From: Planctomycetota bacterium
GTDB lineage: Bacteria > Planctomycetota > B15-G4 > SIAN01
Reading direction: 5' to 3'
Assembly (NCBI GenBank): GCA_016872815.1
Contig: VGYY01000002.1
Location: 1 to 48,198, forward strand
DNA length: 48,198 nucleotides
Positions 1 through 45,720 of this stretch are shown in pieces (the stretch's first letter is position 1; every line of letters begins with the position of its first letter). A program made the position numbers and the translations under genes. The notes beneath the pieces were generated by a model. That model had not been told where the DNA came from. It did not search any database and saw nothing but the letters and a program-made list of their open reading frames with translations.

Positions 1-2257
1 CACCGCGCTCGCCCCGCTCGCCGCCGTGGCCGCCGCCGTGCGCTCCGCCCGGAGCGCCACGGCCGCCTTCGCCGCGCGGCGCCTCCTTCTTCGCCGTCAG
101 CGCGATGCGCTTGCGCTCGAGGTCGACCTCGAGCACCCGCACCTGCAGCTTGTCGCCGACCTTCACCACGTCGCTCGGCGCCTCGACGAACTGGTCGGCC
201 AGCTGCGACACGTGCACCAGTCCGTCCTGGTGGACGCCGATGTCGACGAACGCTCCGAAAGCGGTCACGTTCGTCACCACGCCCTCGAGCGCCATGCCCG
301 GCTTCAGGTCCTCGAGCCGGGTCACGTCCTCGCGGAAGCGCGGCGGCTCGAACTGGCTGCGCGGATCGCGGCCGGGCTTCTGCAGCTCGGCGAGGATGTC
401 GCGCAGCGTCGGCTCGCCGACGTCGCCGCCCAGGTACTTCTTCGGCTCGATCTTCGCGGCGGCCGCGTCGTTGCCGACCAGCTCCGCGACCGCGACGCCG
501 ACGTCCGCTGCCATCTTCTCGACCAGCTCGTAGCGCTCGGGGTGGACCGCGGACGCGTCGAGCGGATGCTGGCCGTCGCGGATGCGGAGGAACCCGGCGC
601 ACTGCTCGAAGGTCTTCGGGCCCATGCCGCCGACCTCGAGCAGCTGCTTTCGCCCCTTGAACGCGCCGTGCTCCTCGCGGTGCTTGACGATCCGGGTCGC
701 CAGCGCGCCGCCGATGCCGGCCACGCGCGCGAGCAGCGGCGCAGACGCGGTGTTGAGCTCGACGCCGACATGGTTCACGCAGCTCTCGACCACGTCGTCG
801 AGCTTGCCGGCCAGCAGCGGCGCGTGGACGTCGTGCTGGTACTGCCCGACACCGATCGACTTGGGATCGATCTTGACCAGCTCGGCCAGCGGATCCTGCA
901 GGCGACGCGCGATCGAGATGGCGCCGCGGATGGTGACGTCGAGGTCGGGGAACTCGGCGCGCGCGACGTCGGATGCCGAGTAGACGCTGGCGCCCGCCTC
1001 GTTGACCGGCGTGACGATCACCTGCTTCAGCTCCGGCTTCTCGACGGCGAGCCCGGCGATCATCTGCCGCACCAGGCTCTCGGTCTCGCGGCCGTGGGTG
1101 CCGTTGCCGATGGCGATCGCCACCGGCGGATGCGCCAGCACGAACTTCGCCAGCTCGGCCTTCGCCTTGGTCTCGTCGCGCACCGGGAAGATCGTGGTCG
1201 CGTCGAGGTACTTGCCGGTGGCATCGACCGCGACGCACTTGCAGCCGGTGCGCACGCCCGGATCGATGCCGATGACCGACTTCCCGCCGAGCGGGGCCGC
1301 CAGCAGCAGGTGGCGCAGGTTGTCGGCGAAGACGTCGACGGCGAGGCGGTCGGAGCGGAGCTTGAGCTCGACGCGCAGCTCGGTCTCGATCGAGGGCTGG
1401 AGCAGGCGCCGGTAGCCGTCGGCGACGGCGGCGCGCAGCTCGCCGGCGAACGGCGACGCGGGCAGGAGCTTCAGCTCGGTCTCGAGCTTCGGCAGCACGC
1501 GCGTCTCGTCGGCCTCGAGGTGGACCGACAGCGCACCCTCCTGTTCGCCGCGGCGCACGGCGAGGAAGCGATGCGACGGGATCTTCACGATCGGTTCGCG
1601 GAAGTCGTAGTAGGCCTCGAAACGGGTCGGCTGCTGCGTCTTCTCCGCGACGCGCGTCGACACCAGCACCGCCTCGCGGCCCCAGTGTTCGCGGACCATC
1701 CGGCGCAGCCCGGCGTTCTCGGCCACGGTCTCGGCCACGATGTCGCGTGCGCCTTGCAGCGCGGCGGCGGCATCGGGCACGCCCTTCTCGGCGGCGACGA
1801 ACTTCGCCGCCTCGGCGGCCGGGTCACCGGCGGCGGGCTGCTCCAGCAGTCGCTGCGCCAGCGGCTCGAGGCCGCGCTCGCGGGCGATGATCGCGCGGGT
1901 GCGCCGCTTCGGCCGGAACGGCAGGTAGAGGTCCTCGAGCGCCGCCTTGGTCGTGACCGCGCGGAGCTTCGCCTCGAGCTCGGCGGTCAGCTTGCCCTGC
2001 TCGCCGATCGACTTGAGGACGGTGGCGCGGCGCTCCTCGAGGTCGGTCAGGTACGCGACCCGCTCGCCGATGGTCCGGATCGCCACCTCGTCGAGTTCGC
2101 CGGTCGCCTCCTTGCGGTAGCGCGCGATGAACGGCACCGTCGCCCCTTCGCCGATCAACCGGAGGACGGCAGCGACGCCCGCGGCCGGGAGCGCGAGCTC
2201 CGCGGCGATCACGGGCGCGAAGTCGGGGGCGGGAGCGGTGGCGGAAGCGCGGTCCAT
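1..2257 (-). CDS. tex: Tex-like transcription accessory protein (S1 RNA-binding domain at C-terminus); 3' end runs off the window
   Basis: Reverse-complement translation from the ATG at 2257 gives MDRASATAPAPDFAPVIAAELALPAAGVAAVLRLIGEGATVPFIARYRKEATGELDEV... The left edge reads ...GMALEGVVTNVTAFGAFVDIGVHQDGLVHVSQLADQFVEAPSDVVKVGDKLQVRVLEVDLERKRIALTAKK, a typical S1 domain. It is absent from the ORF track because no stop lies inside the window. The listed + ORF 26..2263 is its antisense shadow. Confidence 0.9.
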   Translation of the reverse strand, partial: MDRASATAPAPDFAPVIAAELALPAAGVAAVLRLIGEGATVPFIARYRKEATGELDEVAIRTIGERVAYLTDLEERRATVLKSIGEQGKLTAELEAKLRAVTTKAALEDLYLPFRPKRRTRAIIARERGLEPLAQRLLEQPAAGDPAAEAAKFVAAEKGVPDAAAALQGARDIVAETVAENAGLRRMVREHWGREAVLVSTRVAEKTQQPTRFEAYYDFREPIVKIPSHRFLAVRRGEQEGALSVHLEADETRVLPKLETELKLLPASPFAGELRAAVADGYRRLLQPSIETELRVELKLRSDRLAVDVFADNLRHLLLAAPLGGKSVIGIDPGVRTGCKCVAVDATGKYLDATTIFPVRDETKAKAELAKFVLAHPPVAIAIGNGTHGRETESLVRQMIAGLAVEKPELKQVIVTPVNEAGASVYSASDVARAEFPDLDVTIRGAISIARRLQDPLAELVKIDPKSIGVGQYQHDVHAPLLAGKLDDVVESCVNHVGVELNTASAPLLARVAGIGGALATRIVKHREEHGAFKGRKQLLEVGGMGPKTFEQCAGFLRIRDGQHPLDASAVHPERYELVEKMAADVGVAVAELVGNDAAAAKIEPKKYLGGDVGEPTLRDILAELQKPGRDPRSQFEPPRFREDVTRLEDLKPGMALEGVVTNVTAFGAFVDIGVHQDGLVHVSQLADQFVEAPSDVVKVGDKLQVRVLEVDLERKRIALTAKKEAPRGEGGRGAPGGAHGGGHGGERGERG

Positions 2258-2597
2258 CGATGAGTGCCTGCGGGGACGGGGAGGGTGGAGCGAGGGTCGT
2301 TGCGCCGGGCAGAAGGCCCGGCACCTGGAACGGAAGGCCGAGAGGATCGAAAAGTCGAGGGCGTTCGTCGAGGGGGAAGGGGCGAGCGCTGCGGCGGCGC
2401 GAGCCGGGGGCGCGCGCGGCGGGCCGCCCAGCGTACGCCATCCGCGCTCACGCCATGGCCGTGTGGTCGCCCCGTCGCCGGCGCCCGCGGCGGCAGCTCC
2501 GGGCTCACCCGCCAGCAGCGGCCGCGCCGGCGCGGGTGGCGTTGCACCCGCGCGGCGAGCCCGTCGCGCGAGGCAGCTCAGTCCGGATCCGCCCGAA

Positions 2598-3008
2598 TCA
2601 GTCCGGATAGACGAACGTCACCGGTCGCTCGATCGCAGGGTTGACGCTCAGGTGGACCGGACAGGTCAGCGCCGCCTGCTCGAGGATCGGGCGTGCTTCC
2701 TTCGGCAGGCCCGGCGGCAGCTCGATGCGGATCGGCAGGCGACCGATGCGCCGCTGCGGGTCGGCCACCATCTGTTTCTCGACGAAGCCGCGCGCGCCTT
2801 CGAGCTTCCAGCCGTGCTTGCGCGCCGCGATCCCCATGATTGTCAGCATGCAGGTGACCAGCGCCGTCGCCAGCAGGTCAGTCGGCGAAAAACTCTCGCC
2901 AAGGCCCTGGTTGTCTTTCGGCGCGTCAGTTGCGAGCTTCGCGCCAGACGGGCCGTGAGTGGCGCTGCAACGCAGGCCGCCGGAATAGTCGATTTGGATG
3001 GAGACCAT
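2598..3008 (-). CDS. OsmC/Ohr family peroxiredoxin-like protein
   Basis: 136 aa of OsmC-like size and pattern (SGGLRCSATHGPSGAKLATDAP...ESFSPTDLLATALVTCMLTIMGIAARKHG...LTCPVHLS) with two conserved Cys contexts. Confidence 0.85.
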   Translation of the reverse strand: MVSIQIDYSGGLRCSATHGPSGAKLATDAPKDNQGLGESFSPTDLLATALVTCMLTIMGIAARKHGWKLEGARGFVEKQMVADPQRRIGRLPIRIELPPGLPKEARPILEQAALTCPVHLSVNPAIERPVTFVYPD

Positions 3009-3129
3009 CGAGTGCCCTCATGATCGGCGCCGTCGCACCCTCACCGCGCGGAGCGTGCGAGCGTGACGATACGCCTGCGGTAGCGTCGCGCGCCGCATCC
3101 TCACACTTGTGCCGGCCCGGGAGTCCCTC

Positions 3130-3924
3130 ATGTCCGACCGCCGCGCCTTCTCCGTCGCAATCTTCGCGCGCCATCGCGGGCGGGTGCTGCTGATCCAGCA
3201 CAAGCGCCTCGCGACGTGGCTGCCGGTGGGCGGCGAGATCGAGGCGGGAGAGACGCCGCTCGAGGCGGCGGCGCGGGAGCTCAGGGAGGAGACCGGGCTC
3301 GACGGGCGGTTCGTGGCGGCGCCGGGAACGACGCGGGTGACCGGAACGCCGGCGGGGTTGCTGGCCTACGAAGAGCACCCGGCGGGGAGCAAGGGGCTCC
3401 ACCTCAACTTCTGCTTCGTGGCCGACGTCGACTCCGACCGGGTCGTCGGCGACGACTCCTTCGGCGAGCATCGCTGGGTTGAGTCGACGGCAGGCCTCGA
3501 CTGCCCGCCGAACGTGCGCGAGTTGGTGGCGCTCGCGCTGGCGGCGCCGGCGACTGACGGTCCGCTCGTCGCCCTGGCCCGGGCCTGGCTCGCCGCCTTC
3601 AACGAGCGCGCGCTCGACCGCCTGCTCGCGCTCTACGCCGACGACGCACGCCATTTCTCGCCGAAGCTGCTGGCGCGCCGGCCGGAGACCGAGGGGCTCG
3701 TGATCGGCCAGGCGGCGCTGCGCGACTGGTGGGCCGACTGCTTCGAGCGGCTGCCGGGCCTCCACTACGCCGAGCGGTCGATCACCACCGCGGGCGACGG
3801 CTTGGCCGGCCACGTCGTGATCGAGTACGAACGGACGGTCCCGGGCGAGCCGGCACTGGCGGTCGCCGAGGCGTACACGGTGCGCGACGGCCGCATCGCC
3901 GAGTCGCGCGTCTTCCACGGGTGA
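3130..3924 (+). CDS. NUDIX hydrolase fused to a SnoaL/NTF2-like C-terminal domain
   Basis: NUDIX box GGEIEAGETPLEAAARELREETGL. The C-terminal half (LARAWLAAFNERALDRLLALYADDARHFSP...YTVRDGRIAESRVFHG) looks SnoaL/NTF2-like. The ATG at 3130 is preceded by GGGAG; a GTG at 3109 is an alternative start. Confidence 0.8.
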   Translation: MSDRRAFSVAIFARHRGRVLLIQHKRLATWLPVGGEIEAGETPLEAAARELREETGLDGRFVAAPGTTRVTGTPAGLLAYEEHPAGSKGLHLNFCFVADVDSDRVVGDDSFGEHRWVESTAGLDCPPNVRELVALALAAPATDGPLVALARAWLAAFNERALDRLLALYADDARHFSPKLLARRPETEGLVIGQAALRDWWADCFERLPGLHYAERSITTAGDGLAGHVVIEYERTVPGEPALAVAEAYTVRDGRIAESRVFHG

Positions 3925-3947
3925 TGGGCGCGGTGAGGAGCCGGGGG

Positions 3948-4817
3948 ATGGCACGATCGTCGGCGCCCATCGCCGGGTTCCTGGCGCTGGCGCTGGCCGG
4001 TGCCGGTTGCCGACAGTCGCAACCGGACCGCGCGGCAGCACAGCTCACGGCCACGAGTCTGCGCGCCATGAGCTGCAACGTCCGCTACGGCACCGCGGAC
4101 GACGGCCCGGATGGCTGGCCGTTGCGGCGCGCGCGACTGGCGACGGCGATCGCCGCGGCGGACCCCGAGGTGCTGGGCGTGCAGGAGGCGCTCGATTTCC
4201 AGCTCGAAGCGCTGGCGACCCTGCTCCCCGACCACGTGCGCATCGGCGTGGGGCGCGACGGCGGCGCACGCGGCGAACATGCCGCCCTGTTCATCGATTC
4301 GCGCGCGTGGAGGATCCTGGAGCACGGCGACTTCTGGCTGAGCGAAACGCCCGCGACGGTGGCGTCGATCGGCTGGGATGCGGCGCTGCCGCGGATCTGC
4401 ACCTGGGCGCGGCTCGAGTCCTGCGCGACCGGCGAATCGATCACGGTCTGGAACGCGCACTTCGACCATCGCGGCGAGCGCGCACGCCTCGAGAGCGCGC
4501 GGTTGATCGCGCAGCGGATCGCGACGGCGACGGGCCCGCGGCTGCTGCTCGGCGACCTCAACTGCGGCGAGGCGAGCGCGCCGCTCGTGGTGCTGCGCGC
4601 GGCCGGGCTGCGCGACACGTTCCGCGACGTGCATCCCGCAGCGACGGCGGTCGGCACGTTCCACGCGTTCCGCGGCGGCACGACCGGCGAGAAGATCGAC
4701 TACGTGCTGGCGTCGACGGGCGTGCGCACGCTCGGGGCGGAGCTGCTGACGGCTCCCGCCGCCGACGGCCGCTGGCCGAGCGATCACCACTTCGTCATGG
4801 CGACGGTCGAGTTCTGA
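3948..4817 (+). CDS. Endonuclease/exonuclease/phosphatase (EEP) family lipoprotein
   Basis: Lipobox signal MARSSAPIAGFLALALAGAGC. EEP-like motifs follow: LRAMSCNVRYG, LGVQEA, NAHFDH, LLLGDLN, IDYVL, SDHHFV. GAGGAG lies upstream of the ATG at 3948. An alternative ATG at 3924 overlaps the NUDIX stop (ATGA). Confidence 0.8.
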   Translation: MARSSAPIAGFLALALAGAGCRQSQPDRAAAQLTATSLRAMSCNVRYGTADDGPDGWPLRRARLATAIAAADPEVLGVQEALDFQLEALATLLPDHVRIGVGRDGGARGEHAALFIDSRAWRILEHGDFWLSETPATVASIGWDAALPRICTWARLESCATGESITVWNAHFDHRGERARLESARLIAQRIATATGPRLLLGDLNCGEASAPLVVLRAAGLRDTFRDVHPAATAVGTFHAFRGGTTGEKIDYVLASTGVRTLGAELLTAPAADGRWPSDHHFVMATVEF

Positions 4818-4871
4818 CGCCGCGGGGCGGCAGGTCGCGACCCGAACACGCCCGCTCCAACCGAAAGCGGC

Positions 4872-4919
4872 GGCCGGCGCGGTCCAGAGGCGCGCGTCGC
4901 CGGAGTCGCCGCGCCGGCC
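4872..4919. terminator. GC-rich hairpin between the convergent EEP and VTC genes (possible bidirectional terminator)
   Basis: 11-bp perfect arms GGCCGGCGCGG (4872-4882) and CCGCGCCGGCC (4909-4919) with a 26-nt loop. No clear U-tract. Confidence 0.3.
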
Positions 4920-4946
4920 TGATCCCCGCGCCGACCCGGCGTCGCC

Positions 4947-5690
4947 TCAGCGCACCAGCCCGGCCGCCTCGACCGCCCGGCAGTACTTGCTGATCCGCTC
5001 GAGCTTCAGGTCGTGGCGGTTGAGCGCGGTGCAGAGCCAGCTCGGCAGCACGCGGTCGAACTTGACCTCGAGGATGCACCAGTCGGGCGGGAGGAACCAG
5101 CGACCGCGCGTCGGGTCGCCCTGGATCGAGAGATCGTGCGACCGCCATTTCATGTTGCGGTCGAGCGTGATGCGCAGGTCGCGCCGCCAGGAGTCGAAGA
5201 ACGCCGCGCGGTTGTAGCTGACCACGACGGTCGGCCGCAGCCGCTCCGTCTTCGCCAGCACGGAGGCCTCGTCCAGCACGGCATCGCCCGGCTGGTGGCG
5301 TCCGGCGCAGAGTTCGCGCACGGTCCGCTCTGCGGCGGCCACCGGCAGCTTGGTGCGCCGCTTGGCCACGCCGAGGTTGAGCCGCTGCTTGATCTCGACG
5401 AATGCATGGCTCGCGCCGGCGCCGTAGGTGCGCACCCGCACCTTGCGCCGGTACTTCTCGCCGTCCTGCTTCTCCCAGTAGGCGTCGAGGCCCGGGGAGT
5501 CGAGGTAGAGCGAGGTGATCTTGTAGAAGCCGTCGGCGCCGGCGTTGGCGTCGCGGCGCACGTAGGGCGCGATGGTGTCCAGCACCGCCTGCGCCTGCCG
5601 CACCTGCAGCAGGTACTTGAGCTCGTACCGATCGAACAGGAGCAGGTCGGCCTTCTCGTCGCGCCGCTGCCGCACGAGGGACGCGCTCAT
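4947..5690 (-). CDS. VTC-domain (polyphosphate polymerase-like, triphosphate tunnel/CYTH-type) protein
   Basis: MSASLVRQRRDEKADLLLFDRYELKYLL...ITSLYLDSPGLDAYWEKQDGEKYRRKVRVRTYG...FVEIKQR...VVVSYNRAAFF...LRITLDRNM...CILEVKF is the pattern of bacterial VTC-domain proteins. The start at 5690 overlaps the CotH stop (ATGA at 5687-5690). The longer track ORF (to 6218) lies inside the CotH gene and is rejected. Confidence 0.8.
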   Translation of the reverse strand: MSASLVRQRRDEKADLLLFDRYELKYLLQVRQAQAVLDTIAPYVRRDANAGADGFYKITSLYLDSPGLDAYWEKQDGEKYRRKVRVRTYGAGASHAFVEIKQRLNLGVAKRRTKLPVAAAERTVRELCAGRHQPGDAVLDEASVLAKTERLRPTVVVSYNRAAFFDSWRRDLRITLDRNMKWRSHDLSIQGDPTRGRWFLPPDWCILEVKFDRVLPSWLCTALNRHDLKLERISKYCRAVEAAGLVR

Positions 5691-8431
5691 GGCGCGCCCG
5701 CCATCGCCGGCAGCACCACGAACCGGCCGGGGTCGAGCTTCGCCGGCAGCTCGAACCTGCCCTCGGTGGTGGTGTCCTCGAGCGTCAGCGACGACTGGTC
5801 GTCCATGCGCACGTCGACCTCGTTGCCGCGCAACCCGCAGCGAACCAGCCGCCCGAGCCCGCCGCCCGGGTAGCGCCAGTTCTTGTCGTAGGAGGAGACG
5901 CCGACCTTGCAGTCGAAGATGGCCGTGTCGAACACCTGCGGGTCCGAGCCGTCCTTGATGCCGATGCCGGTGACGCAGCCGCGCAGCAGCGCGTCGCGGA
6001 TAATCGGGTGCGAGCCCTCGCCGACCGAGATCCCCTTGTCGCCGGCGCCCTCGACCCGGATCCGTTCGAGCGTGACGCTGCAGGTCATCAGGTCGAAGCC
6101 GTCGTTCAGCGGCTTCACGATGGTGATGTCGGACGCCGTGCCGTCGCACAGGTCGAAGTCGATCGCGTCGGCGATGGCGCGTTCCACCGTGACCCGCTCG
6201 AAGACGACGCGCCGGCACTTGCCGAGCCGCACGCCGTCGTCGCCGAGGCGATTGTCGGCGAAGCGGCAGTCGCGCACGACGAGGTCGTCGACCAGGTGGG
6301 CCGAGAACATCCCCGAGTAGTACAGCCAGCCGATCGTCGCCTCGCTGCCGCCGACGATCGACACGCGCTCGAGCAGGCTGCCGTCGCAGCCGTGCCCCTG
6401 CAACGCGACCACGCCGAACGGCTGGCCCGGATCGAGCCGCTCGAAGCGCACGTCACGCCATGCGACGCGCGACGCGAGCTGCAGCGACACGCCCGGTCCG
6501 AGCTTCACCACGCTGCCGGGTGCGATGGCGAGCGTGTCGGCCGGTCCGAGCCGCAGGCTCTCCGTAACCGCCACCGCACCCGACCAGGCGAGCGCGCGCG
6601 GCGCCGCCGGCGCGTCCCGCCGCCACGGATGCACGCTGTCGGTGGCGACGTAGCCGTGCGGCGGCCCTTCGCGCACCTCGACGGCGCCGGCGCCGACCGT
6701 CCGCTCGCAGGCGAGCGCAAGCACGCGCGGCACCGAACCACCCGCCGGCGCACGCAGCAGGAAGCGGCTCTCGAGCGCCGCCAGCCGCGTGAACGCGCGG
6801 TGCTGCGAGAACGTGTCCTGCCCTTCGCTCGGCCGGTCGCGGAACGAGGCGGTGAAATCGCGCCCGACGTGGAGCGCCGCGGCGGGATCGTCGACGACGA
6901 GGCGATGCCCTTCGAGGCGCGTCGCCACGCGCCGATCCGCCGGTCCCAGTGCCCCGTCGAAATCGCGATCCTCGTGGAGCTCGAGCGCCGTCGGGGCGGT
7001 CTCCAGATCGATCGCGGCGAGGCGCAGCGACGCGACCGCCGTGGCATGCACCGAGAGCGCCGCCTGCGCTGCGTCCGCGACACCGTCGGCGCCGGCTCGC
7101 GCCGGCTCGCGCTGCCACGCCACCTCCGCCACCGCGTGCTGCTGCCGGACGGTCTGATGGCGCTCTTCGAGCTTGCGGGCCATGCCGCGGAACGCCACGT
7201 CGAGCCAGCGGTCGACCGGCATGCCGGCCGCCTCGATCGCACGCCGCGTCCGCTCCAGCACCGCGAGCTGCCGCGCCGGCGCCTCGTCGCGCAGGCAATC
7301 GGCCGCGACGATCGCGGCGACGCGATCGAGGAAGCGCGGGTCCTGCGCCAGGCGCAGGAAGAGCCGGTTCGCCGTCGACTCGACGCCTTGCCCCGCCGGC
7401 ATGTTGAGCAGCGGGTTCCACAGGTAGCCCGACAGCTTCCCGGCCAGCAGGTCGAGTCCGATCTTCCAGTTGTGCGAATGGTCGACGTGCTGGTCGCCGT
7501 GGTAGGCGAGGACGGCGCAGTAGCGGGCGAAGCTCGGGTCGAGGATCGCATCGAGGCGGTCGAGGCCGCGCGCCGTCGGGTCGTGGGCGGCGTCGAGCAG
7601 CTCGGACAGCCACGGCCGCCACGACTCCTCGTACCGGTTCCAGCGGTCGTTCTTCTCCCACAGGTGGGGATTCCACGACAGCTCCCATGACGAGTGGATC
7701 GGCACGTCGGGCACGAACAGCTCGCCGTAGAAGACGTCGCCCGGCATCTCGCCCACGCGCCGCACGAACGACTCGTCGACCTGCTCCTCCTGCAGGTAGA
7801 GCCCCTCGTCCTCGAGGTTGACGTAGAGGCGGACCACGCGCGTGAGCGGCGCCGGCAGGCCGATCTCGCGTGCCAGCTCGAACGTGACCAGGCTCGACAG
7901 GCGATCCTCGAGCGGCGTCAGGTTCAGCACGCGCTGCTCGTCGACGAACTCGCGCTTCTTCGTGCGCAGCTTCCACGACTTGCGCGCGAAGAAGAAGTTC
8001 TCCATCCGCTGGCCGCGCCAGCTGGCGTCGACCTCGTAGCTCTCGGCGTCATTGACCTCGAGCAGCGCGTTCTGGCGCTGGCGGGCCGATTCCGGCAGGT
8101 CGGCGGCGAGCGCATCGAGCGCGGGCCCGTCGATGCGCAGGTCGTAGACGTCGACCGGTGGCAGCGGGTCGGCGGCTGCCGGCGCGACGCGCACGGGCCG
8201 CGCCAGCGGCAGGAAGCGCTTCGGCGCGCCGCCGAAGACTTGGCGGATCGCCTGGTTGATCATCAGGCGCAGCGTCCCGACGCGCTGGTCACGCACCAGC
8301 TCGCCGTGGAAGTTGCGGATCTCAGCGTTCCAGAAGCTCGAGAGCGCGGCACCCCACAGCCAGAGCGACAGCACCAGGAACGGCGTCGCGAGGAAGACGA
8401 CGTCGCGCAGCACGTTGCGCGGCCGGCGCAT
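5687..8431 (-). CDS. Membrane-anchored CotH-family kinase-like protein with a C-terminal right-handed beta-helix (PbH1-like) region
   Basis: N-terminal TM segment VVFLATPFLVLSLWLWGAALSSF. The central region is CotH-like (ESYEVDASWRGQRMENFFFARKSWKLRTKK...VRLYVNLEDEGLYLQEEQVDESFV...HVDHSHNWKIGLD). The C-terminus has repeated beta-helix-like turns (DAIDFDLCDG...NDGFDLMTC...GDKGISVGEGS...GIGIKDGS). Confidence 0.8.
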   Translation of the reverse strand: MRRPRNVLRDVVFLATPFLVLSLWLWGAALSSFWNAEIRNFHGELVRDQRVGTLRLMINQAIRQVFGGAPKRFLPLARPVRVAPAAADPLPPVDVYDLRIDGPALDALAADLPESARQRQNALLEVNDAESYEVDASWRGQRMENFFFARKSWKLRTKKREFVDEQRVLNLTPLEDRLSSLVTFELAREIGLPAPLTRVVRLYVNLEDEGLYLQEEQVDESFVRRVGEMPGDVFYGELFVPDVPIHSSWELSWNPHLWEKNDRWNRYEESWRPWLSELLDAAHDPTARGLDRLDAILDPSFARYCAVLAYHGDQHVDHSHNWKIGLDLLAGKLSGYLWNPLLNMPAGQGVESTANRLFLRLAQDPRFLDRVAAIVAADCLRDEAPARQLAVLERTRRAIEAAGMPVDRWLDVAFRGMARKLEERHQTVRQQHAVAEVAWQREPARAGADGVADAAQAALSVHATAVASLRLAAIDLETAPTALELHEDRDFDGALGPADRRVATRLEGHRLVVDDPAAALHVGRDFTASFRDRPSEGQDTFSQHRAFTRLAALESRFLLRAPAGGSVPRVLALACERTVGAGAVEVREGPPHGYVATDSVHPWRRDAPAAPRALAWSGAVAVTESLRLGPADTLAIAPGSVVKLGPGVSLQLASRVAWRDVRFERLDPGQPFGVVALQGHGCDGSLLERVSIVGGSEATIGWLYYSGMFSAHLVDDLVVRDCRFADNRLGDDGVRLGKCRRVVFERVTVERAIADAIDFDLCDGTASDITIVKPLNDGFDLMTCSVTLERIRVEGAGDKGISVGEGSHPIIRDALLRGCVTGIGIKDGSDPQVFDTAIFDCKVGVSSYDKNWRYPGGGLGRLVRCGLRGNEVDVRMDDQSSLTLEDTTTEGRFELPAKLDPGRFVVLPAMAGAP

Positions 8432-8432
8432 C

Positions 8433-9533
8433 TCAGCCGCCCTCCGCGAGCGCCGGCGCGAGGTTCTCGCGCGCCTTGCGGATCACGCGCTGCGAATGCG
8501 TCGACAGCGACGCCTGCGGGATCCGGCAGCGCAGCGCGACGCTCGCCACCTGGTTGCCGGGGATGCCGGTGAACAGCTCGGCGTATGCCCCGACGCCCGA
8601 GCCGGCGCGATGGAGCAGCGCCACTTCGGGCAGCCGGGTCTCGCGCGAGCCGTCGCGGCGCGCCACTTCGCAGCCGGTGACGGCGAATCCGTCCCACAGG
8701 TTCTCGATGCGCAGCTGCACGACGAGCTCTTCGCGCCACGGCCATGGTTCGAACATCGCCGCCGGGAACTCGATGCGCACGTCCTCGCCGCGCGGCAGCG
8801 CCCACAGCTCCTGATGGCGGAAGAAGCGCGCGTGCTCGACCGGCACGCCGACGGCGCCGAGGACGTCGCGCTCGAGCGGCCGGCGCGGGATGCCGGCCTT
8901 GATCAGCCCGCGCGGCGCACCGCGCACCTGCGCCCGGTCCCACTCGTCGGCCGCCGCTGCCACCTCGGCGTAGGCATTCAGCTCGCCGAGCGCCGCAAGG
9001 TAGTCGTCGAGGACTCCGGGGTGGGTCAGCGTCAGCTCGAACGCGCGCCGGAGCGATCTCGCCGCCGCCTTGAAGTCGCCGTCCGCGTCGAAGGCGCGTC
9101 CCTGCGCCCACCAGAGCTGGTAGTCGGTCGGCAGCCGTTCGAGCAGCGGGACCAGCGCCTCCGCGCCGCGATTCGGCCGCCCGAGCGCGACCCACGCCTC
9201 GGCCAGCTGCACTCCGGCCCGGCTCACCGCGTGGGTCCACCGCTGCGCCGGCTGGATGCGCGGATGGTCGGCGAGGAAACGCTCGAGGCGATCGCGCGCG
9301 GTCGCGTGGTCACCCGCCGCCGCCTCCGCGCGCGCCGCGTCCGGTTCGGCGAAGGTCCGCTCGTGGAACCAGGCGCGGGCGGCGATGGTGAGGCCGAGGT
9401 CGACGTCGTCGGGCACCCAGGCGACGTAGGCCCACAGGCCGCCACCGGTGATCAGCGTCAGCAGCAGGTAGGCCGCCGCCAGCACCCGACGGTGGGAATA
9501 GGCGAAGCTGCGCAGCCGCCCGAGGACGGTCAC
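8433..9533 (-). CDS. Hypothetical membrane-anchored protein with a TPR-like helical region and a beta-rich C-terminal domain
   Basis: 366-aa ORF in the coding-type frame. TM segment VLAAAYLLLTLITGGGLWAYVAWV, followed by helical-repeat-like sequence. Its stop at 8433 lies 1 nt from the CotH start codon at 8431, which suggests operon membership. Confidence 0.6.
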   Translation of the reverse strand: MTVLGRLRSFAYSHRRVLAAAYLLLTLITGGGLWAYVAWVPDDVDLGLTIAARAWFHERTFAEPDAARAEAAAGDHATARDRLERFLADHPRIQPAQRWTHAVSRAGVQLAEAWVALGRPNRGAEALVPLLERLPTDYQLWWAQGRAFDADGDFKAAARSLRRAFELTLTHPGVLDDYLAALGELNAYAEVAAAADEWDRAQVRGAPRGLIKAGIPRRPLERDVLGAVGVPVEHARFFRHQELWALPRGEDVRIEFPAAMFEPWPWREELVVQLRIENLWDGFAVTGCEVARRDGSRETRLPEVALLHRAGSGVGAYAELFTGIPGNQVASVALRCRIPQASLSTHSQRVIRKARENLAPALAEGG

Positions 9534-9579
9534 GCGCGACTCCGGACGCCGCCGGCCGGCGCTGCCGTCGCCGGCCCGC

Positions 9580-10284
9580 TCACAGCTGGATCTGCGAGTG
9601 GCCCAGCACCAGCTGCGCGTGCGCCGTCGGGGCGACCCGCTTCAGCTCGGCCAGCAGCGCCTGCTCGGCGCCGGGCTTGCGCGGGACGATCGACCAGACC
9701 ACCTCGATCCGGCCCGAGCCGTCGCTGTCGACCGACAGGAGGTCGGAGGCCTGGAGGTGGGCGTAGAACGCCTGATTGAACGCGGTCTGGTAGTCGACCT
9801 TCTCGTCGATGAGCAGCTTGAGCAGCACCTCGACGCCGGGCTTGGCGCCGACGTTGAAGCGGACCAGGGCGTAGAGGATGGCGCACGCGAGCAGCGTGAA
9901 GAGGAGCGCCACCGCGCCGAAGCCGGTGCCGCACGCCATGCCGATCGCAGTGGTCAGGAAGAAGAACGCGACGTCACGGCTCTCCTTGACGGCGTTGCGG
10001 AAGCGGATGATCGAGAGCGCGCCGACCAGGCTGAACGCGCGCGCGATGTTGGTGCCGATGATCTGCATCATCAGCGCCACGCAGATGGCCATGATCACCA
10101 TCGTGTGCACCGTCGTCTGCGAATACGACGGCCCGGCGTGGGTCACCTTGTAGACGTAGCCCACCAGCAGCGAGAGCACGAACGCCCAGCCGACGGCACG
10201 GAGCATGTCCAGGACGGGCAGCGTGTCGACGCCCGCCGTCGTCGGGAAGAGCCACTGGAAGAAGTCGTTCGGCGCGGTCGGCAC
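9580..10284 (-). CDS. DUF4956-family integral membrane protein
   Basis: ...NDFFQWLFPTTAGVDTLPVLDMLRAVGWAFVLSLLVGYVYKVTHAGPSYSQTTVHTMVIMAICVALMMQIIGTNIARAFSLVGALSIIRFRNAVKESRDVAFFFLTTAIGMACGTG... matches the DUF4956 pattern as I recall it. I place the start at GTG 10284, with GGAG 9 nt upstream. The 436-aa track ORF extends upstream into low-complexity sequence and is not believed. Confidence 0.75.
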   Translation of the reverse strand: MPTAPNDFFQWLFPTTAGVDTLPVLDMLRAVGWAFVLSLLVGYVYKVTHAGPSYSQTTVHTMVIMAICVALMMQIIGTNIARAFSLVGALSIIRFRNAVKESRDVAFFFLTTAIGMACGTGFGAVALLFTLLACAILYALVRFNVGAKPGVEVLLKLLIDEKVDYQTAFNQAFYAHLQASDLLSVDSDGSGRIEVVWSIVPRKPGAEQALLAELKRVAPTAHAQLVLGHSQIQL

Positions 10285-10466
10285 GGCGAGGAACTCCGGC
10301 GACGAGAGAAACGTGCGAGTGCGAGCGGCCGGCCGTGCGGCAGCCGTGCCGGATCCGTTCGCCCATCGACGACCTGAAGATCGACCGGATGGTAGCCGAG
10401 GCGTGAATCCGACCCTCCCCGAGGCACGGGGGGAAGCGCGAACCTGACGGAGCGCGGCGGGCAGGC

Positions 10467-11549
10467 TCAGCGCTTGAGCCAGTGGGCGTACTGGATCGGC
10501 AGGAGCGCCTGCGGCTTGTCGACCTTCAGCGCCTTGGCCGCGTGGAACGGCCAGTAGGCGTCCTTCAGCATCTCGCGTGCGAGGATCACCACGTCGGCGT
10601 GGCCCTCGGCGATGATCGCCTCGGCGGCGGCCGGCTCGCTGATCATCCAGCCGGCGCCGCACGGCAGGCCGACCTCGCGGCGGATGCGCGCGGTGGTCGG
10701 CACCATGAAGCCCGGCCCCCACGGGATCTTCGAGATGTCGGGGGTGATGAACCCCTGGCTCACGTCGATCAAGTCGAGCCCGCGCGCCTTCAGCTTGCGC
10801 AGCAGCTCGATCGACTCCTCGACCGTCACGCCGCCCTCGATCCAGTCGGTCACCGAGAGGCGCACCGCCAGCGGCAGGTGCTCGGGCCACGCCGCGCGCA
10901 CCGCGTCGAACGTCTCGACCAGGAAGCGGCAGCGGTTCTCGAAGCTGCCGCCGTACTCGTCGGTGCGCTGGTTAGCGAGCGGCGAGAAGAACTCGTGCGC
11001 GAGGTAGCCGTGCGCGAAGTGGAGTTCGAGGAAGCGCACGTCGGCCGCCAGCGCGCGCCTTGCCGCCGCCGCGAAGTCGCCGCGCACGCGCGCGATCTCC
11101 TCCTTCGTCATCGCCTTCGGCGCCACCGGCAGGTAGGCGCCGAACGCCAGCGCCGACGGCCCGAGGATCGGCCACGGCTTCTCGTTCGGTCCGAGGTGCT
11201 GGTCGCCCTCCCACGGCCGTTGCGCGCTGGCCTTGCGGCCGGCGTGGCCGATCTGGAGTCCCGCGACCGCGCCGTGCTGTTCGATGAAGCGGTTCACGCG
11301 GGCGAGCGGCTCCACGTGCGCGTCGGACCAGATCCCGGCGTCGCCGTGACTGATCCGCCCTTCAGGCGAGACCGCGGTCGCCTCGTCGATCACGAGACCG
11401 GCGCCGCCGACGGCGCGCGACCCCAGATGGACCAGGTGCCAATCGGTCGCCATGCCGTCATCCGAGGAGTATTGGCACATCGGCGAAACGACGACGCGGT
11501 TGCGCAGCGTGACCGACTTGAGGGCGAGCGGAGTGAAGAGAGCGGCCAT
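10467..11549 (-). CDS. Old Yellow Enzyme family NADH:flavin oxidoreductase (YqjM/NamA-like)
   Basis: MAALFTPLALKSVTLRNRVVVSPMCQYSS...WHLVHLGSRAVGGAGLVIDEATAVSPEGRIS...LQIGHAGRKAS...LELHFAHGYLAHEFFSPLANQRTDEYGGSFENRCRF. Only the 3' third of track ORF 10467..13268 is real. Confidence 0.9.
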   Translation of the reverse strand: MAALFTPLALKSVTLRNRVVVSPMCQYSSDDGMATDWHLVHLGSRAVGGAGLVIDEATAVSPEGRISHGDAGIWSDAHVEPLARVNRFIEQHGAVAGLQIGHAGRKASAQRPWEGDQHLGPNEKPWPILGPSALAFGAYLPVAPKAMTKEEIARVRGDFAAAARRALAADVRFLELHFAHGYLAHEFFSPLANQRTDEYGGSFENRCRFLVETFDAVRAAWPEHLPLAVRLSVTDWIEGGVTVEESIELLRKLKARGLDLIDVSQGFITPDISKIPWGPGFMVPTTARIRREVGLPCGAGWMISEPAAAEAIIAEGHADVVILAREMLKDAYWPFHAAKALKVDKPQALLPIQYAHWLKR

Positions 11550-39152: not shown

Positions 39153-39704
39153 TTTTTTTTCGGAGTCGCAACGTCGCTGCAACTCGCGCCTCGTCACGAC
39201 TTGCACGCACGAAGAAGAACGGGTGCCGAACGCGTCGTGGTCGAGAGGTCGTTGACGATCCTCATTCTCACCGCCTAAAACTTGTGCCCTCGCGGTGAAG
39301 AGGGGAGCGAGCGAAGCGTGTTCGGGGCGCGTTTCAGCGCCGAACGCGACCGCTGAACCCCGCGGCAGCGCGAGCGCGACGGAACCGGTGGTGGCGATCA
39401 CTGGATACGTCGTGGACTGGTCGCGGGAAAGGTTGGCGAACCCTTCTCGCGGCCGGGTCGAAGAGCGCGGGGATCGCGGCTGCGGCGTAGCGCCGGAGTC
39501 GTCCCCCGCCTCCGTGGGAAACAGGTGAGGCGAACGCCTCACCCCCTGGTTCGAGCCGTCCGCAGGTCCCGCCATCCGTGGCCCCGCCCGCAACCGCGCG
39601 TTGCGCCGGCGGCCCCGGGGGCTTCCCCGTGGCCGGCACGAACGATTTCCGAGCCCGTTGCTTCCCGGGTGGGCGACCCGGGGCCGAGGGGGGGGAACCG
39701 TCCG

Positions 39705-42869: not shown

Positions 42870-42873
<4 letters not shown>
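41776..42873 (+). CDS. dnaN: DNA polymerase III beta sliding clamp
   Basis: MKLRCDRRALQEIVGIVGGVTASRGTRPILQHVLMKTQGSEVEFLATDLEVAL...; 365 aa at the canonical position after dnaA. Confidence 0.93.

Positions 42874-45720
<2,847 letters not shown>

What the first reader, a model, noticed from the sequence alone, without database searches (positions are those of the whole stretch)
4947..10284. Translationally coupled DUF4956 / helical-repeat / CotH-beta-helix / VTC operon: a candidate bacterial VTC-like polyphosphate machine
Four minus-strand genes are packed end to end. The TPR-like stop at 8433 is 1 nt from the CotH start at 8431, and the CotH stop and VTC start share ATGA at 5687-5690.

The operon combines four parts:
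- a soluble VTC/triphosphate-tunnel domain, which is the catalytic fold of the eukaryotic Vtc4 polyphosphate polymerase;
- a multi-pass DUF4956 membrane protein;
- a membrane-anchored CotH atypical-kinase domain fused to a parallel beta-helix;
- a membrane-anchored helical-repeat protein.

In eukaryotes the VTC tunnel domain is covalently joined to a transmembrane channel that translocates the nascent polyP chain. Here the tunnel and a membrane module are separate, co-translated genes, which suggests a split bacterial analogue. To my knowledge no function has been demonstrated experimentally for such a module. CotH could phosphorylate or regulate it, and the beta-helix suggests an extracytoplasmic polymer or glycan partner. 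A membrane pyrophosphatase (hppA) and an anion-type SLC13 permease lie within 5 kb, but that proximity may be coincidence.
Basis: partly seen in the sequence, partly recalled or inferred. Interest (0 to 1): 0.8.

Follow-up and report, generated by a model that had tools for sequence, protein, structure and literature searches.

The report
Bacterial VTC-type polyphosphate envelope operon
A planctomycete carries a tightly packed four-gene operon that pairs a yeast-type polyphosphate-polymerase domain with a membrane protein and two periplasm-facing proteins. The core gene set is conserved across many bacterial phyla and had already been noticed beside Pel biofilm operons, but what it makes is still untested.

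Summary
Four minus-strand genes lie at 4947-10284: DUF4956, a TPR protein, a CotH/beta-helix protein and a VTC protein.

The VTC protein keeps the Vtc4 tunnel and catalytic residues I checked. DUF4956 has five TM helices plus a cytoplasmic ACT-like domain. It resembles MgtC, not the Vtc1 channel. The CotH and TPR proteins are N-terminally anchored and face the periplasm.

The same four-gene order recurs on 13 distinct Planctomycetota contigs with different flanking genes. Among 51 VTC loci from many phyla with 5 kb or more on both sides, 49 have an adjacent DUF4956 and 39 have a CotH gene. Myxococcota-type loci add an OprO/P-family porin.

hppA and the SLC13-type permease are not conserved neighbours.

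The CotH/VTC/DUF4956 triad was already reported beside Gram-positive pel operons. Knockouts in S. intermedius gave modest phenotypes, and no biochemistry exists.

In most of this CotH/beta-helix subfamily the metal-binding Asp of CotH is Asn, so canonical kinase activity is doubtful.

Most likely this is an envelope-spanning phosphate-polymer module. PolyP synthesis and export are inferred, not shown. I class it as a new variant of a known but uncharacterised gene set.

The parts
4947..5690 (-). VTC-domain protein (247 aa). Soluble triphosphate-tunnel enzyme and putative polyphosphate polymerase.
   Evidence: Pfam VTC 4e-40. The family profile hits yeast Vtc4 (3g3q) at 2e-14, against Vtc2/3 at 1e-6 to 1e-5. 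Invariant residues K25, R85, R87, K101, Y159, R161, R173, E208, S234 and K235 align to Vtc4 K200, R264, R266, K281, Y359, R361, R373, E426, S457 and K458. No TM segment.
5687..5690 (-). ATGA overlap: CotH stop TGA and VTC start ATG.
   Evidence: Read directly. The same 4-nt overlap is present in L001, L003 and L004.
5687..8431 (-). Membrane-anchored CotH-like / beta-sandwich / right-handed beta-helix protein (914 aa).
   Evidence: Pfam CotH 3e-12 and Beta_helix 3e-7. AF2 model mean pLDDT 80. Foldseek hits B. cereus CotH 5jda at E 2e-10 with TMt 0.70. The C-terminal half resembles GH87, capsule lyases, tailspikes, AlgE4 and NosD.
8345..8413 (-). N-terminal TM anchor of the CotH protein (residues 7-29). 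Preceded by MRRPRNVLRD, which implies N-in and C-out.
   Evidence: Hydropathy. AF2 helix 7-41. C739, C819, C841 and C865 in the beta-helix are invariant or nearly invariant, which fits an extracytoplasmic location.
7133..8152 (-). CotH-like domain (residues about 94-433). Catalytic-loop D317...N321 is kept. The residue equivalent to the metal-binding Asp is Asn339.
   Evidence: Profile alignment to 5jd9. Multiple alignment of 66 CotH domains. D228 and D251 are the B. subtilis catalytic residues according to PMC7821199.
5711..6595 (-). Right-handed parallel beta-helix (residues about 613-907), CASH/NosD-like.
   Evidence: AF2 strands with pLDDT above 90. Foldseek hits to polysaccharide lyases, hydrolases and epimerases. 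Pfam Beta_helix.
8433..9533 (-). Membrane-anchored TPR protein (366 aa). TM at residues 17-37, TPR region about 60-200, and an unassigned C-terminal domain of about 170 aa.
   Evidence: Hydropathy. Family profile A5 matches consensus TPR and OGT TPR chains over positions 103-192. 18 of 19 members hit Pfam TPR_14. Only 34 representative clusters among 1.84 billion proteins. Found only in the Planctomycetota form of the operon.
9580..10284 (-). DUF4956 membrane protein (234 aa; alternative start at 10206). Five TM helices (residues 24-142) plus a C-terminal ferredoxin-like ACT/PII-like domain (residues 153-226).
   Evidence: Pfam DUF4956 1.4e-14, and MgtC 5e-4 below its cutoff. AF2 mean pLDDT 80. 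Foldseek gives only weak hits, to ACT and PII domains and to the MgtC C-terminal domain 2lqj. No Vtc1 or Vtc4 hit. No sequence hit to any PDB chain.
9973..10005 (-). Most conserved stretch of DUF4956: the basic loop RFRNAVKESRD (R94, R96, K100, R103 and D104 invariant). Predicted to be cytoplasmic.
   Evidence: Invariant columns of the 31-sequence alignment A2. The topology is inferred from the positive-inside rule and the AF2 helix boundaries.
10375..10397 (-). Conserved upstream motif GGCTACCATCCGGTCGATCTTCA. Candidate promoter (-10-like TACCAT) or operator of the operon.
   Evidence: The core CTACCATCCGGTCGATCTTCA is identical upstream of DUF4956 in L001 and L008. A lower-GC version occurs in L011 and L016. 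It occurs once in the window, with 0 expected. Its function was not tested.

Best explanation
The four genes form one operon that encodes an envelope-spanning module. Its core is a catalytically competent VTC-type triphosphate-tunnel enzyme and its near-obligate membrane partner DUF4956.

**Most likely mechanism**
- The soluble VTC protein sits on the cytoplasmic face of DUF4956, at its conserved basic loop and ACT-like domain. There it polymerises phosphate from a nucleoside triphosphate.
- DUF4956 tethers and gates this activity. It may also pass the anionic product, or its phosphoryl groups, to the periplasmic side.
- On the periplasmic side, the anchored CotH-like/beta-helix protein, scaffolded by the anchored TPR protein, binds or modifies a cell-envelope polymer (glycan or protein).

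**Shown**
- Operon structure and its conservation.
- Domain identities.
- Conservation of the Vtc4 catalytic residues.
- Inside/outside layout of the four proteins, by prediction.
- Lineage-specific envelope accessories: the TPR protein here, and an OprO/P-family porin plus a small anchored protein in Myxococcota.

**Inferred**
- PolyP synthesis.
- VTC-DUF4956 contact.
- Any translocation.
- The substrate of the CotH/beta-helix protein.
For: **Operon**
- Coupled junctions.
- The order DUF4956-TPR-CotH/BH-VTC is conserved on 13 distinct Planctomycetota contigs with unrelated flanks.
- A conserved motif lies upstream of the first gene.

**VTC**
- 41 invariant residues across 16 sequences at 39-74% identity, including the Vtc4 catalytic set.
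- The profile is closer to catalytic Vtc4 than to Vtc2/3.

**VTC-DUF4956 linkage**
- DUF4956 is present in 72 of 80 loci and in 49 of 51 loci with 5 kb or more on both sides.
- These loci span Planctomycetota, Chloroflexota, Myxococcota, Cyanobacteria-like lineages, Gemmatimonadota, Acidimicrobiia and Alphaproteobacteria.
- The pair stays adjacent although the gene order differs between clades.

**CotH linkage**
- CotH is present in 39 of 51 loci, and the same CotH + sandwich + beta-helix architecture in 31 of 51.

**Layout**
- VTC has no TM segment. The basic loop and ACT-like domain of DUF4956 are predicted cytoplasmic.
- The CotH and TPR proteins have positively charged N-termini followed by one TM segment. 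The beta-helix carries conserved cysteines.

**Envelope link**
- A Porin_O_P-family gene sits in the same operon in 26 loci. 15 of 16 members tested hit Pfam Porin_O_P.
- L063 is a clean five-gene operon with overlapping junctions.

**Literature**
- Deleting the CotH and DUF4956 homologues in S. intermedius changes Pel levels and aggregation (PMC12345266).
Against: - No biochemical data exist for any bacterial VTC protein.
- The S. intermedius VTC deletion had no phenotype.
- DUF4956 shows no sequence or fold similarity to the Vtc1/Vtc4 channel. Its relative MgtC is, from my own knowledge, a regulator rather than a transporter.
- The bacterial VTC motif is R-x-E-x-K where Vtc4 has R-x-T-x-K. 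A hydrolase or another triphosphate-tunnel chemistry is therefore not excluded.
- The CotH domain lacks the canonical metal-binding Asp, and its catalytic loop is one residue shorter than in B. cereus CotH.
- About a quarter of well-flanked loci, mostly Chloroflexota, have VTC-DUF4956 without a nearby CotH. The periplasmic arm is therefore not obligatory.
- I could not run a complex prediction.
Confidence: 0.45

Rival explanations
1. PolyP is made but stays in the cytoplasm. DUF4956 is an MgtC-like membrane anchor or regulator whose ACT-like domain senses a metabolite, and it is not a conduit. The periplasmic CotH/beta-helix and TPR proteins act separately on an exopolysaccharide or surface protein. 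They are co-expressed only because both respond to the same condition, such as phosphate or matrix state.
For: - DUF4956 is MgtC-like with an ACT/PII-like domain and shows no resemblance to Vtc channels.
- Many Chloroflexota loci have VTC-DUF4956 without CotH, often with a HisKA_3 kinase and a LuxR-type regulator.
- The preprint version of the S. intermedius study (bioRxiv 10.1101/2024.04.20.589940) suggested that the polyP may remain cytoplasmic.
Against: - The CotH stop and VTC start overlap, and the overlap is conserved.
- CotH/BH stays next to VTC-DUF4956 through rearrangements across phyla.
- An OprO/P-family porin lies inside the same operon in 26 loci, which is hard to explain if nothing anionic crosses the envelope.
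Confidence: 0.25
2. The VTC-domain protein is not a polymerase. It is another triphosphate-tunnel enzyme, such as a tripolyphosphatase, polyP or NTP hydrolase, or a cyclase-like enzyme. The module then senses or scavenges phosphate or polyphosphate taken in through the envelope, rather than making and exporting it.
For: - VTC belongs to the CYTH/triphosphate-tunnel superfamily, whose members mostly hydrolyse (my own knowledge).
- The bacterial proteins keep a Glu in the ExExK-like motif (R21-Y-E23-L-K25) where Vtc4 has Thr.
- From my own knowledge, OprP and OprO are uptake porins, and MgtC affects phosphate homeostasis.
Against: All Vtc4 residues implicated in polymerisation and chain binding that I checked are invariant. 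The profile is closest to catalytic Vtc4.
Confidence: 0.15
3. The CotH/beta-helix protein is a pseudokinase or pure binding module. It recognises an envelope glycan through the beta-helix and signals across the membrane to VTC/DUF4956, so the module is a sensor and not a biosynthetic line.
For: - The metal-binding Asp is replaced by Asn, Gly, Ser, Ala, Lys or Glu in 30 of 42 CotH/BH proteins. It is kept in 17 of 21 CotH paralogues that lack the beta-helix.
- Some loci (L004, L005, L013) carry a second, canonical CotH next door.
Against: - The catalytic-loop Asp and Asn, and many other charged residues of the CotH domain, are invariant within the clade.
- The single TM anchor has no obvious cytoplasmic signalling domain.
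Confidence: 0.1
4. The four genes are adjacent by chance and share no function.
For: None beyond the absence of experiments.
Against: - Overlapping start and stop codons.
- The order is conserved at 40-90% identity with changing flanks.
- Cross-phylum co-occurrence.
Confidence: 0.01

Closest known systems
Eukaryotic VTC polyphosphate polymerase complex (yeast Vtc4/Vtc1/Vtc2/3; PDB 3g3q, 7ytj, 8i6v)
   Same: - The triphosphate-tunnel domain is homologous, and the Vtc4 catalytic and tunnel residues are conserved.
- A catalytic domain is paired with a membrane component.
- In yeast, the product is delivered to the non-cytosolic side of the membrane (my own knowledge).
   Different: - No SPX domain and no DUF202/Vtc1-type three-helix transmembrane domain.
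- The membrane partner is a separate MgtC-like five-TM protein with an ACT-like domain.
- The motif is R-x-E-x-K instead of R-x-T-x-K.
- Extra periplasmic CotH/beta-helix and TPR partners are present.
- Neither activity nor translocation has been shown.
cotH / 'poly-phosphate polymerase' / DUF4956 accessory genes of Gram-positive pel operons (S. intermedius SIR_1594, SIR_1593, SIR_1592; Whitfield et al. 2020; mBio 2025)
   Same: The same three families lie contiguous. CotH is predicted to be extracytoplasmic. DUF4956 was described as an MgtC-like TM region plus an ACT domain.
   Different: - Here there are no pel genes anywhere in the 48-kb window.
- The host is a diderm planctomycete.
- CotH is fused to a beta-sandwich and beta-helix instead of FN3.
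- A TPR protein is inserted.
- There is no DUF4832 or DGC/PDE gene.
- The mBio paper states that the three-gene synteny was not found outside Pel loci. The 80 loci examined here show that it is widespread outside them.
Bacillus CotH spore-coat kinase (PDB 5jd9/5jda)
   Same: Same fold (Foldseek E 2e-10, TMt 0.70). The profile alignment covers residues 4-321. The catalytic-loop Asp and Asn are present.
   Different: - The residue equivalent to the metal-binding Asp (B. subtilis D251) is Asn339.
- The catalytic loop is one residue shorter.
- A conserved Trp-rich insert of about 35 residues (236-271) is modelled with low confidence.
- The protein is membrane-anchored and fused to a beta-helix.
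- There is no sporulation context.
MgtC family (Salmonella and Mycobacterium MgtC; C-terminal domain PDB 2lqj)
   Same: A multi-helix membrane domain followed by an ACT-like ferredoxin-fold domain. There is a weak Pfam MgtC hit and a weak Foldseek hit to 2lqj.
   Different: - The Pfam MgtC score of 20.9 is below the 31.4 cutoff.
- DUF4956 has its own signature (GxNIARAFSLVGALSIIRFRNAVKESRD).
- It is genetically tied to VTC, not to Mg2+ transport loci.
Clostridium perfringens NELoc-2 locus
   Same: [quoted passage not shown]
   Different: It lies in a Gram-positive pathogenicity locus with a glycosyltransferase, a polysaccharide deacetylase and a sigma/anti-sigma pair. I did not compare it at the sequence level.
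OprP/OprO phosphate- and polyphosphate-selective porins
   Same: A Porin_O_P-family gene is part of the same operon in Myxococcota-type loci.
   Different: No such porin is in this window. The Pfam hits cover only part of the model, and I did not examine selectivity residues.

Membership tests
Eukaryotic-type VTC polyphosphate polymerase complex | Triphosphate-tunnel (VTC, PF09359) domain with the catalytic Lys and the basic tunnel residues | tested here: met
   Pfam 4e-40. K25, R85, R87, K101, R161, R173, E208 and K235 align to Vtc4 K200, R264, R266, K281, R361, R373, E426 and K458 and are invariant.
Eukaryotic-type VTC polyphosphate polymerase complex | Vtc1-type (DUF202) three-helix transmembrane domains that form the polyP channel | tested here: not met
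   The VTC protein has no TM segment. The partner is DUF4956/MgtC-like. There is no Foldseek or HMM similarity to Vtc chains.
Eukaryotic-type VTC polyphosphate polymerase complex | SPX regulatory domain | tested here: not met
   Only the VTC domain was found, covering residues 21-242 of 247.
Eukaryotic-type VTC polyphosphate polymerase complex | ATP-dependent polyP synthesis coupled to membrane translocation | not testable with these tools
   Needs enzymology and reconstitution.
CotH / VTC / DUF4956 conserved gene set (as described beside Gram-positive pel operons) | The three families encoded contiguously on one strand | tested here: met
   The set recurs in 39 of 51 well-flanked loci.
CotH / VTC / DUF4956 conserved gene set (as described beside Gram-positive pel operons) | Contiguity with pelDEA(DA)FG | tested here: not met
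   The neighbours are Tex, OsmC, NUDIX-SnoaL, an EEP-family gene, an OYE-type gene, a permease, hppA and arg genes. The only GT4 in the window lies next to a BshC-like gene. L001, L003, L004 and L063 also show no Pel families.
CotH protein kinase family | CotH fold | tested here: met
   Pfam CotH 3e-12. Foldseek 5jda E 2e-10, TMt 0.70.
CotH protein kinase family | Catalytic Asp (B. subtilis D228) with the catalytic-loop Asn | tested here: inconclusive
   D317 and N321 are invariant. HMMER aligns them to B. cereus D224 and N229. However, the spacing is one residue shorter, MAFFT shifts the Asp, and AF2 confidence for 315-319 is below 50.
CotH protein kinase family | Metal-binding Asp (B. subtilis D251; D251A is inactive) | tested here: not met
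   Asn339 in the window. The position is Asn in 10 of 12 planctomycete proteins and non-Asp in 20 of 30 other CotH/BH proteins, but Asp in 17 of 21 CotH paralogues without a beta-helix. The residue roles come from PMC7821199.
CotH protein kinase family | Protein Ser/Thr phosphorylation with ATP | not testable with these tools
   Needs a kinase assay.
MgtC family | Pfam MgtC (PF02308) above the gathering score | tested here: not met
   20.9 bits against a cutoff of 31.4. Some homologues carry both PF16316 and PF02308 hits.
MgtC family | Polytopic N-terminal domain plus a C-terminal ACT-like domain | tested here: met
   AF2 gives five helices (24-142) and a beta-alpha-beta-beta-alpha-beta domain. 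Foldseek rank 8 is 2lqj, together with ACT and PII domains, all at E of about 1e-2.
TPR proteins | Tandem 34-residue helical hairpins detectable by TPR profiles | tested here: met
   Family profile against consensus TPR chains, with the best stretches at positions 103-192. 18 of 19 members hit TPR_14. The window sequence alone scores below threshold.

The most novel reading that the evidence does not exclude
VTC plus DUF4956 is a bacterial machine, non-homologous in its membrane part to the yeast one, that synthesises polyP and threads it across the inner membrane. The periplasmic CotH-like enzyme has an altered metal site (Asp to Asn). It uses that polyP instead of ATP, which is absent outside the cytoplasm, as a phosphoryl or polyphosphoryl donor to modify an envelope glycan held by its beta-helix. 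In other diderms, an OprO/P-type porin in the same operon carries polyP onward to the cell surface. This would give a first export route for bacterial extracellular polyP and a solution to the energy-source problem of extracytoplasmic kinases.
Probability: 0.15. Interest if true: 0.9.

Novelty: new variant of a known kind. Interest (0 to 1): 0.6.

Why it matters
- Bacterial polyP synthesis is attributed to PPK1 and PPK2, and reviews treat VTC as the eukaryotic enzyme. A working VTC-type polymerase in bacteria would add a third route.
- Its strict pairing with a membrane protein, together with periplasmic partners and a phosphate-porin relative, points to phosphate-polymer chemistry at or beyond the inner membrane.
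- That bears on two open questions: how bacteria put polyP outside the cell, and what extracytoplasmic CotH-type kinases use as a donor.
- The module is widespread. DUF4956 alone has more than 4,400 relatives at E 1e-5 or better in the protein collection. It also occurs in pathogens' biofilm and virulence loci.
- The hypotheses are directly testable with a few constructs.
- The data also correct a published statement that the three-gene synteny is confined to Pel loci.

Tried and rejected
- **Vtc channel similarity.** I looked for fold or sequence similarity between DUF4956 and the Vtc1/Vtc4 transmembrane domains. There was none. Foldseek gave only ACT, PII and MgtC C-terminal domain hits at E of about 1e-2. 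The profile against PDB gave nothing meaningful.
- **TPR protein versus Myxococcota accessories.** I tested whether the planctomycete TPR protein is related to the small anchored protein or to the porin of Myxococcota loci. hhalign probabilities were below 1%.
- **hppA and SLC13-type permease link.** Rejected. These genes are absent from the relatives' loci.
- **Pel association.** Rejected for this locus. There are no pel genes in the window.
- **Promoter and terminator scan of 4700-10700.** It found nothing, which is uninformative at 72% GC.
- **RNA genes.** The Rfam and tRNA scans of the window were empty.
- **Second copies.** A search of the window for further copies of any module family, a porin or the small anchored protein found none.
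- **Literature.** The CotH structure paper (PMC4922149) is not held, so the roles of D228 and D251 were taken from PMC7821199. One literature search was wasted because 'polyP' matched by prefix.
- **Gene calling.** GC3-based gene calling failed on lower-GC loci, so I used plain ORF lists instead.
- **Complex prediction.** A VTC+DUF4956 prediction could not be run.
Full report
**1. What is in the sequence**

The window is 72% GC. Between 4947 and 10284 the minus strand carries four ORFs with third-position GC of 0.92-0.97:
- DUF4956, 9580-10284, starting at GTG. An alternative ATG at 10206 gives the 208-aa form that the public collection holds as P0143.
- A TPR-like protein, 8433-9533.
- A CotH/beta-helix protein, 5687-8431.
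- A VTC protein, 4947-5690.

I read the junctions directly:
- The CotH stop and VTC start share ATGA at 5687-5690.
- The TPR stop is followed by one base and then the CotH ATG.
- DUF4956 and the TPR gene are separated by 46 nt, with a GGAG 8 nt before the GTG.
- A 182-nt gap separates the operon from the upstream OYE-type flavin oxidoreductase gene.

The one nuance is that two of the three junctions, not all three, are overlapping or near-overlapping.

**2. Domain identities**

Pfam gives VTC (4e-40), CotH (3e-12), Beta_helix (3e-7) and DUF4956 (1.4e-14, with a sub-threshold MgtC hit). NCBIfam adds nothing.

*TPR protein.* The TPR hits are sub-threshold for the window sequence alone. An exhaustive HMMER search found only 34 related representative clusters among 1.84 billion proteins. 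In an alignment of 19 of them, 18 hit TPR_14. The family profile matches consensus TPR and OGT TPR chains over positions about 103-192. The C-terminal 170 residues or so match nothing.

*Membrane segments.* Hydropathy shows one N-terminal TM segment in the CotH protein (after MRRPRNVLRD) and one in the TPR protein (after a similarly basic N-terminus). DUF4956 has several, and VTC has none.

**3. The VTC protein looks catalytically competent**

Sixteen VTC proteins at 39-74% identity share 41 invariant residues. The profile hits yeast Vtc4 (3g3q, 2e-14) better than the non-catalytic Vtc2/3 (about 1e-6 to 1e-5).

Counting along that alignment gives these equivalences:

| Window residue | Vtc4 residue |
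|---|---|
| K25 | K200 |
| R85 / R87 | R264 / R266 |
| K101 | K281 |
| Y159 / R161 | Y359 / R361 |
| R173 | R373 |
| E208 | E426 |
| S234 / K235 | S457 / K458 |

That these Vtc4 residues are the functionally important ones is my own knowledge of the Vtc4 structure work.

One difference stands out. The N-terminal motif is R-Y-E-L-K where Vtc4 has R-Q-T-T-K. The bacterial proteins therefore keep one Glu of the ancestral ExExK motif. No bacterial VTC structure is in the PDB.

**4. DUF4956 is MgtC-like, not Vtc1-like**

The AF2 model was built on 31 sequences and has a mean pLDDT of 80. It has five helices (residues 24-142) and a C-terminal beta-alpha-beta-beta-alpha-beta domain.
- Foldseek against the PDB gives only weak hits (E of about 1e-2). 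They are to ACT domains, PII-like proteins and the MgtC C-terminal domain 2lqj. None are to Vtc chains.
- A profile search of PDB sequences finds nothing.
- The most conserved stretch is TM3 and the following loop, GxNIARAFSLVGALSIIRFRNAVKESRD. R82, R94, R96, K100 and R103 are invariant there.

By the positive-inside rule, that loop and the ACT-like domain face the cytoplasm, where the VTC protein is. This is an inference. It fits either a docking or gating site or a regulatory contact, and it does not show a channel.

**5. The CotH/beta-helix protein**

The AF2 model was built on 20 sequences and has a mean pLDDT of 80. Foldseek matches B. cereus CotH (5jda, E 2e-10, TMt 0.70). The C-terminal half matches beta-sandwich plus right-handed beta-helix enzymes that act on polysaccharides: GH87 glucanase, capsule lyases, tailspikes, AlgE4 and NosD.

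In B. subtilis, D228 and D251 are the residues whose mutation inactivates CotH (PMC7821199).
- In the profile alignment to 5jd9, D317 and N321 of the window protein align with the catalytic-loop Asp and Asn.
- The 'WD' metal-binding Asp aligns with 'WN', that is Asn339.

I then aligned 66 CotH domains from the collected loci. Counts are over unique sequences.

| Group | Sequences | Asp | Asn | Other |
|---|---|---|---|---|
| Planctomycete CotH/beta-helix | 12 | 2 | 10 | 0 |
| Other CotH/beta-helix | 30 | 10 | 12 | 8 |
| CotH without a beta-helix | 21 | 17 | 0 | 4 |

The catalytic loop is also one residue shorter in this subfamily, and AF2 models it with low confidence. Many other charged residues are invariant, so the domain is under selection. 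It is probably not a canonical Mg-ATP kinase.

The basic N-terminus, the single TM segment and four conserved cysteines in the beta-helix argue for a periplasmic location. This too is an inference.

**6. Conservation**

*Planctomycetota relatives.* The CotH/beta-helix protein has only about 20 close relatives, and the sources that name an organism call them Planctomycetes MAGs. Context look-ups show DUF4956-TPR-CotH/BH-VTC with the same 4-nt CotH/VTC overlap. The flanking genes differ: an MCP and an AAA_14 gene in L001, radical-SAM and DUF2238 genes in L003, and Nramp, MMPL and a second LTD-CotH-TIG protein in L004. hppA and the permease are not there, so their proximity in the window is coincidental.

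*Wider scan.* A scan of one genome per GTDB species with the VTC profile returned 80 loci. They come from Planctomycetota, Chloroflexota, Myxococcota, Cyanobacteria-like lineages, Aminicenantes, Gemmatimonadota, Acidimicrobiia, Desulfobacterota and Alphaproteobacteria. I built HMMs from the window proteins and iterated them on the six-frame ORFs of all loci.

| Feature | All 80 loci | 51 loci with 5 kb or more on both sides |
|---|---|---|
| DUF4956 | 72 | 49 |
| CotH | 54 | 39 |
| CotH + sandwich + beta-helix architecture | 43 | 31 |

- The TPR protein occurs only in the planctomycete form, which is found on 13 distinct contigs.
- The gene order differs between clades. DUF4956 comes first in Planctomycetota and last elsewhere. 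VTC and DUF4956 nevertheless stay adjacent.
- These 80 loci are the ones most similar to the query, so the percentages describe this part of the family and not all VTC proteins.

**7. A lead from the other phyla**

I clustered all ORFs of the loci. This revealed two further recurrent genes in Myxococcota-type operons.
- A protein of about 400 aa lies upstream of CotH in 26 loci. 15 of 16 members tested hit Pfam Porin_O_P, the OprP/OprO family.
- A protein of about 200 aa with an N-terminal anchor and no known domain lies between CotH and VTC in 28 loci.

L063 (Polyangia, 51% GC) shows a clean five-gene operon with overlapping junctions: porin, CotH/BH, small anchored protein, VTC, DUF4956.

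The family name does not prove phosphate selectivity. Still, an outer-membrane anion-porin relative inside the operon links the module to something anionic crossing the envelope.

Two literature items are reminiscent:
- B. thetaiotaomicron lists a DUF4956 gene beside a DUF2490 gene (PMC10434189).
- C. perfringens NELoc-2 combines two VTC proteins, a CotH protein and a HEAT-repeat membrane protein (PMC11677781).

**8. What was already known**

- Whitfield et al. described cotH, a 'poly-phosphate polymerase' gene and DUF4956, with DUF4832 or a DGC/PDE gene, as conserved accessory genes downstream of Gram-positive pel operons (bioRxiv 10.1101/768473).
- The S. intermedius study (PMC12345266) modelled SIR_1593 as VTC-like and SIR_1592 as an MgtC-like TM domain plus an ACT domain. 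It then deleted each gene. The CotH-FN3 and DUF4956 mutants aggregated less and had altered Pel levels. The VTC mutant showed no change.
- The authors state that they could not find the three-gene synteny outside Pel loci. The present window and the loci whose neighbours were annotated here (L001, L003, L004, L063) carry no pel genes, so the synteny does occur outside them.
- No paper in the searchable library reports enzymology, structure or localisation for a bacterial VTC or DUF4956 protein. Reviews treat VTC as the eukaryotic polyP polymerase.

**9. Interpretation**

The best-supported reading is an envelope-spanning module with these parts:
- A cytoplasmic VTC-type enzyme that is probably a polyP polymerase.
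- An obligate MgtC-like membrane partner.
- In this lineage, two periplasm-facing anchored proteins: a diverged CotH domain fused to a glycan-type beta-helix, and a TPR scaffold.

The operon, the domain identities, the catalytic-residue conservation, the linkage statistics and the predicted topology come from tool results. PolyP synthesis, VTC-DUF4956 contact, translocation and the substrate of the periplasmic arm are inferred.

The main rivals are:
- Cytoplasmic polyP synthesis, with DUF4956 acting as a regulator.
- A non-polymerase triphosphate-tunnel activity in a phosphate-sensing or scavenging system.
- A pseudokinase sensor.

The most novel reading not excluded is polyP export feeding a polyP-dependent extracytoplasmic phosphotransferase. 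I give it about 15%.

**10. Verdict**

- The locus is a new variant (free-standing, diderm, TPR-containing, with a CotH-beta-helix fusion) of a gene set that is known but functionally uncharacterised.
- It is a good experimental target rather than a demonstrated new system.

Noticed in passing
window 10375-10397 (-): A 23-nt motif, GGCTACCATCCGGTCGATCTTCA, lies 91-113 nt upstream of the DUF4956 start. Its core is identical upstream of the orthologous operons in L001 and L008, and a lower-GC version (GTCTATTATCCGA...) occurs in L011 and L016. It could be a -10-like promoter element or an operator.
   Followed up: partly
L063:2631-9453 (also L017, L020, L022 and 22 other loci): In Myxococcota-type loci the module is a five-gene operon. 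It starts with an OprO/OprP-family (Porin_O_P) outer-membrane porin gene, and a small anchored protein with no known domain lies between CotH and VTC.
   Followed up: partly
window 7415-7417 (Asn339 codon of the CotH gene); alignment of 66 CotH domains: The metal-binding Asp of CotH kinases (B. subtilis D251) is Asn in the window protein. It is non-Asp in 30 of 42 CotH/beta-helix proteins but is kept in 17 of 21 CotH paralogues without a beta-helix.
   Followed up: yes
L004:11609-18467, L005:10254-16623, L013:8706-13604: Some Planctomycetia carry a 1,558-aa LTD-CotH-TIG protein directly downstream of VTC, and its CotH domain keeps the metal-binding Asp. In L004 and L005 a large TPR protein follows it. 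This suggests two CotH types working in one locus.
   Followed up: no
window 7619-7726 (CotH residues 236-271): A Trp-rich insert relative to B. cereus CotH (GELFVPDVPIHSSWELSWNPHLWEKNDRWNRYEESWRPW) has many invariant residues, yet AF2 models it at pLDDT 33-50. It could be a partner- or ligand-binding loop.
   Followed up: no
window 23054-23929 (-), 39669-41216 (+), 41776-42873 (+), 43240-45720 (+): ParB, DnaA, DnaN and GyrB are encoded in the window, so the operon lies about 30 kb from the probable chromosomal replication origin.
   Followed up: no
window 2-4817 compared with L001:13935-18721 and L002:8995-10787: The downstream neighbours (an EEP-family nuclease/phosphatase, a NUDIX-SnoaL fusion, OsmC and Tex) are syntenic in the closest relatives. 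Those relatives have an extra AAA_14/DUF4143 ATPase gene and a 225-aa ORF inserted between VTC and the EEP gene.
   Followed up: no
window 23960-25995: This stretch has lower GC (0.68-0.70). Its ORFs of 170-340 aa have no Pfam hit at 1e-4 and did not pass the GC3 coding filter.
   Followed up: no
window 6008-7690 (+), 8256-9779 (+), 6453-7976 (-): Long ORFs lie antisense to or out of frame with the operon genes. They are artefacts of the 72% GC content (Arg/Ala/Pro/Gly-rich translations that did not pass the GC2/GC3 coding filter) and should not be annotated.
   Followed up: yes
Chloroflexota loci, e.g. L019:3404-7219, L029: Many Chloroflexota loci have VTC-DUF4956 without CotH. Instead they carry a HisKA_3 histidine kinase with a LuxR-type response regulator, and in some a GH99/GH71-SH3 protein.
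   Followed up: no
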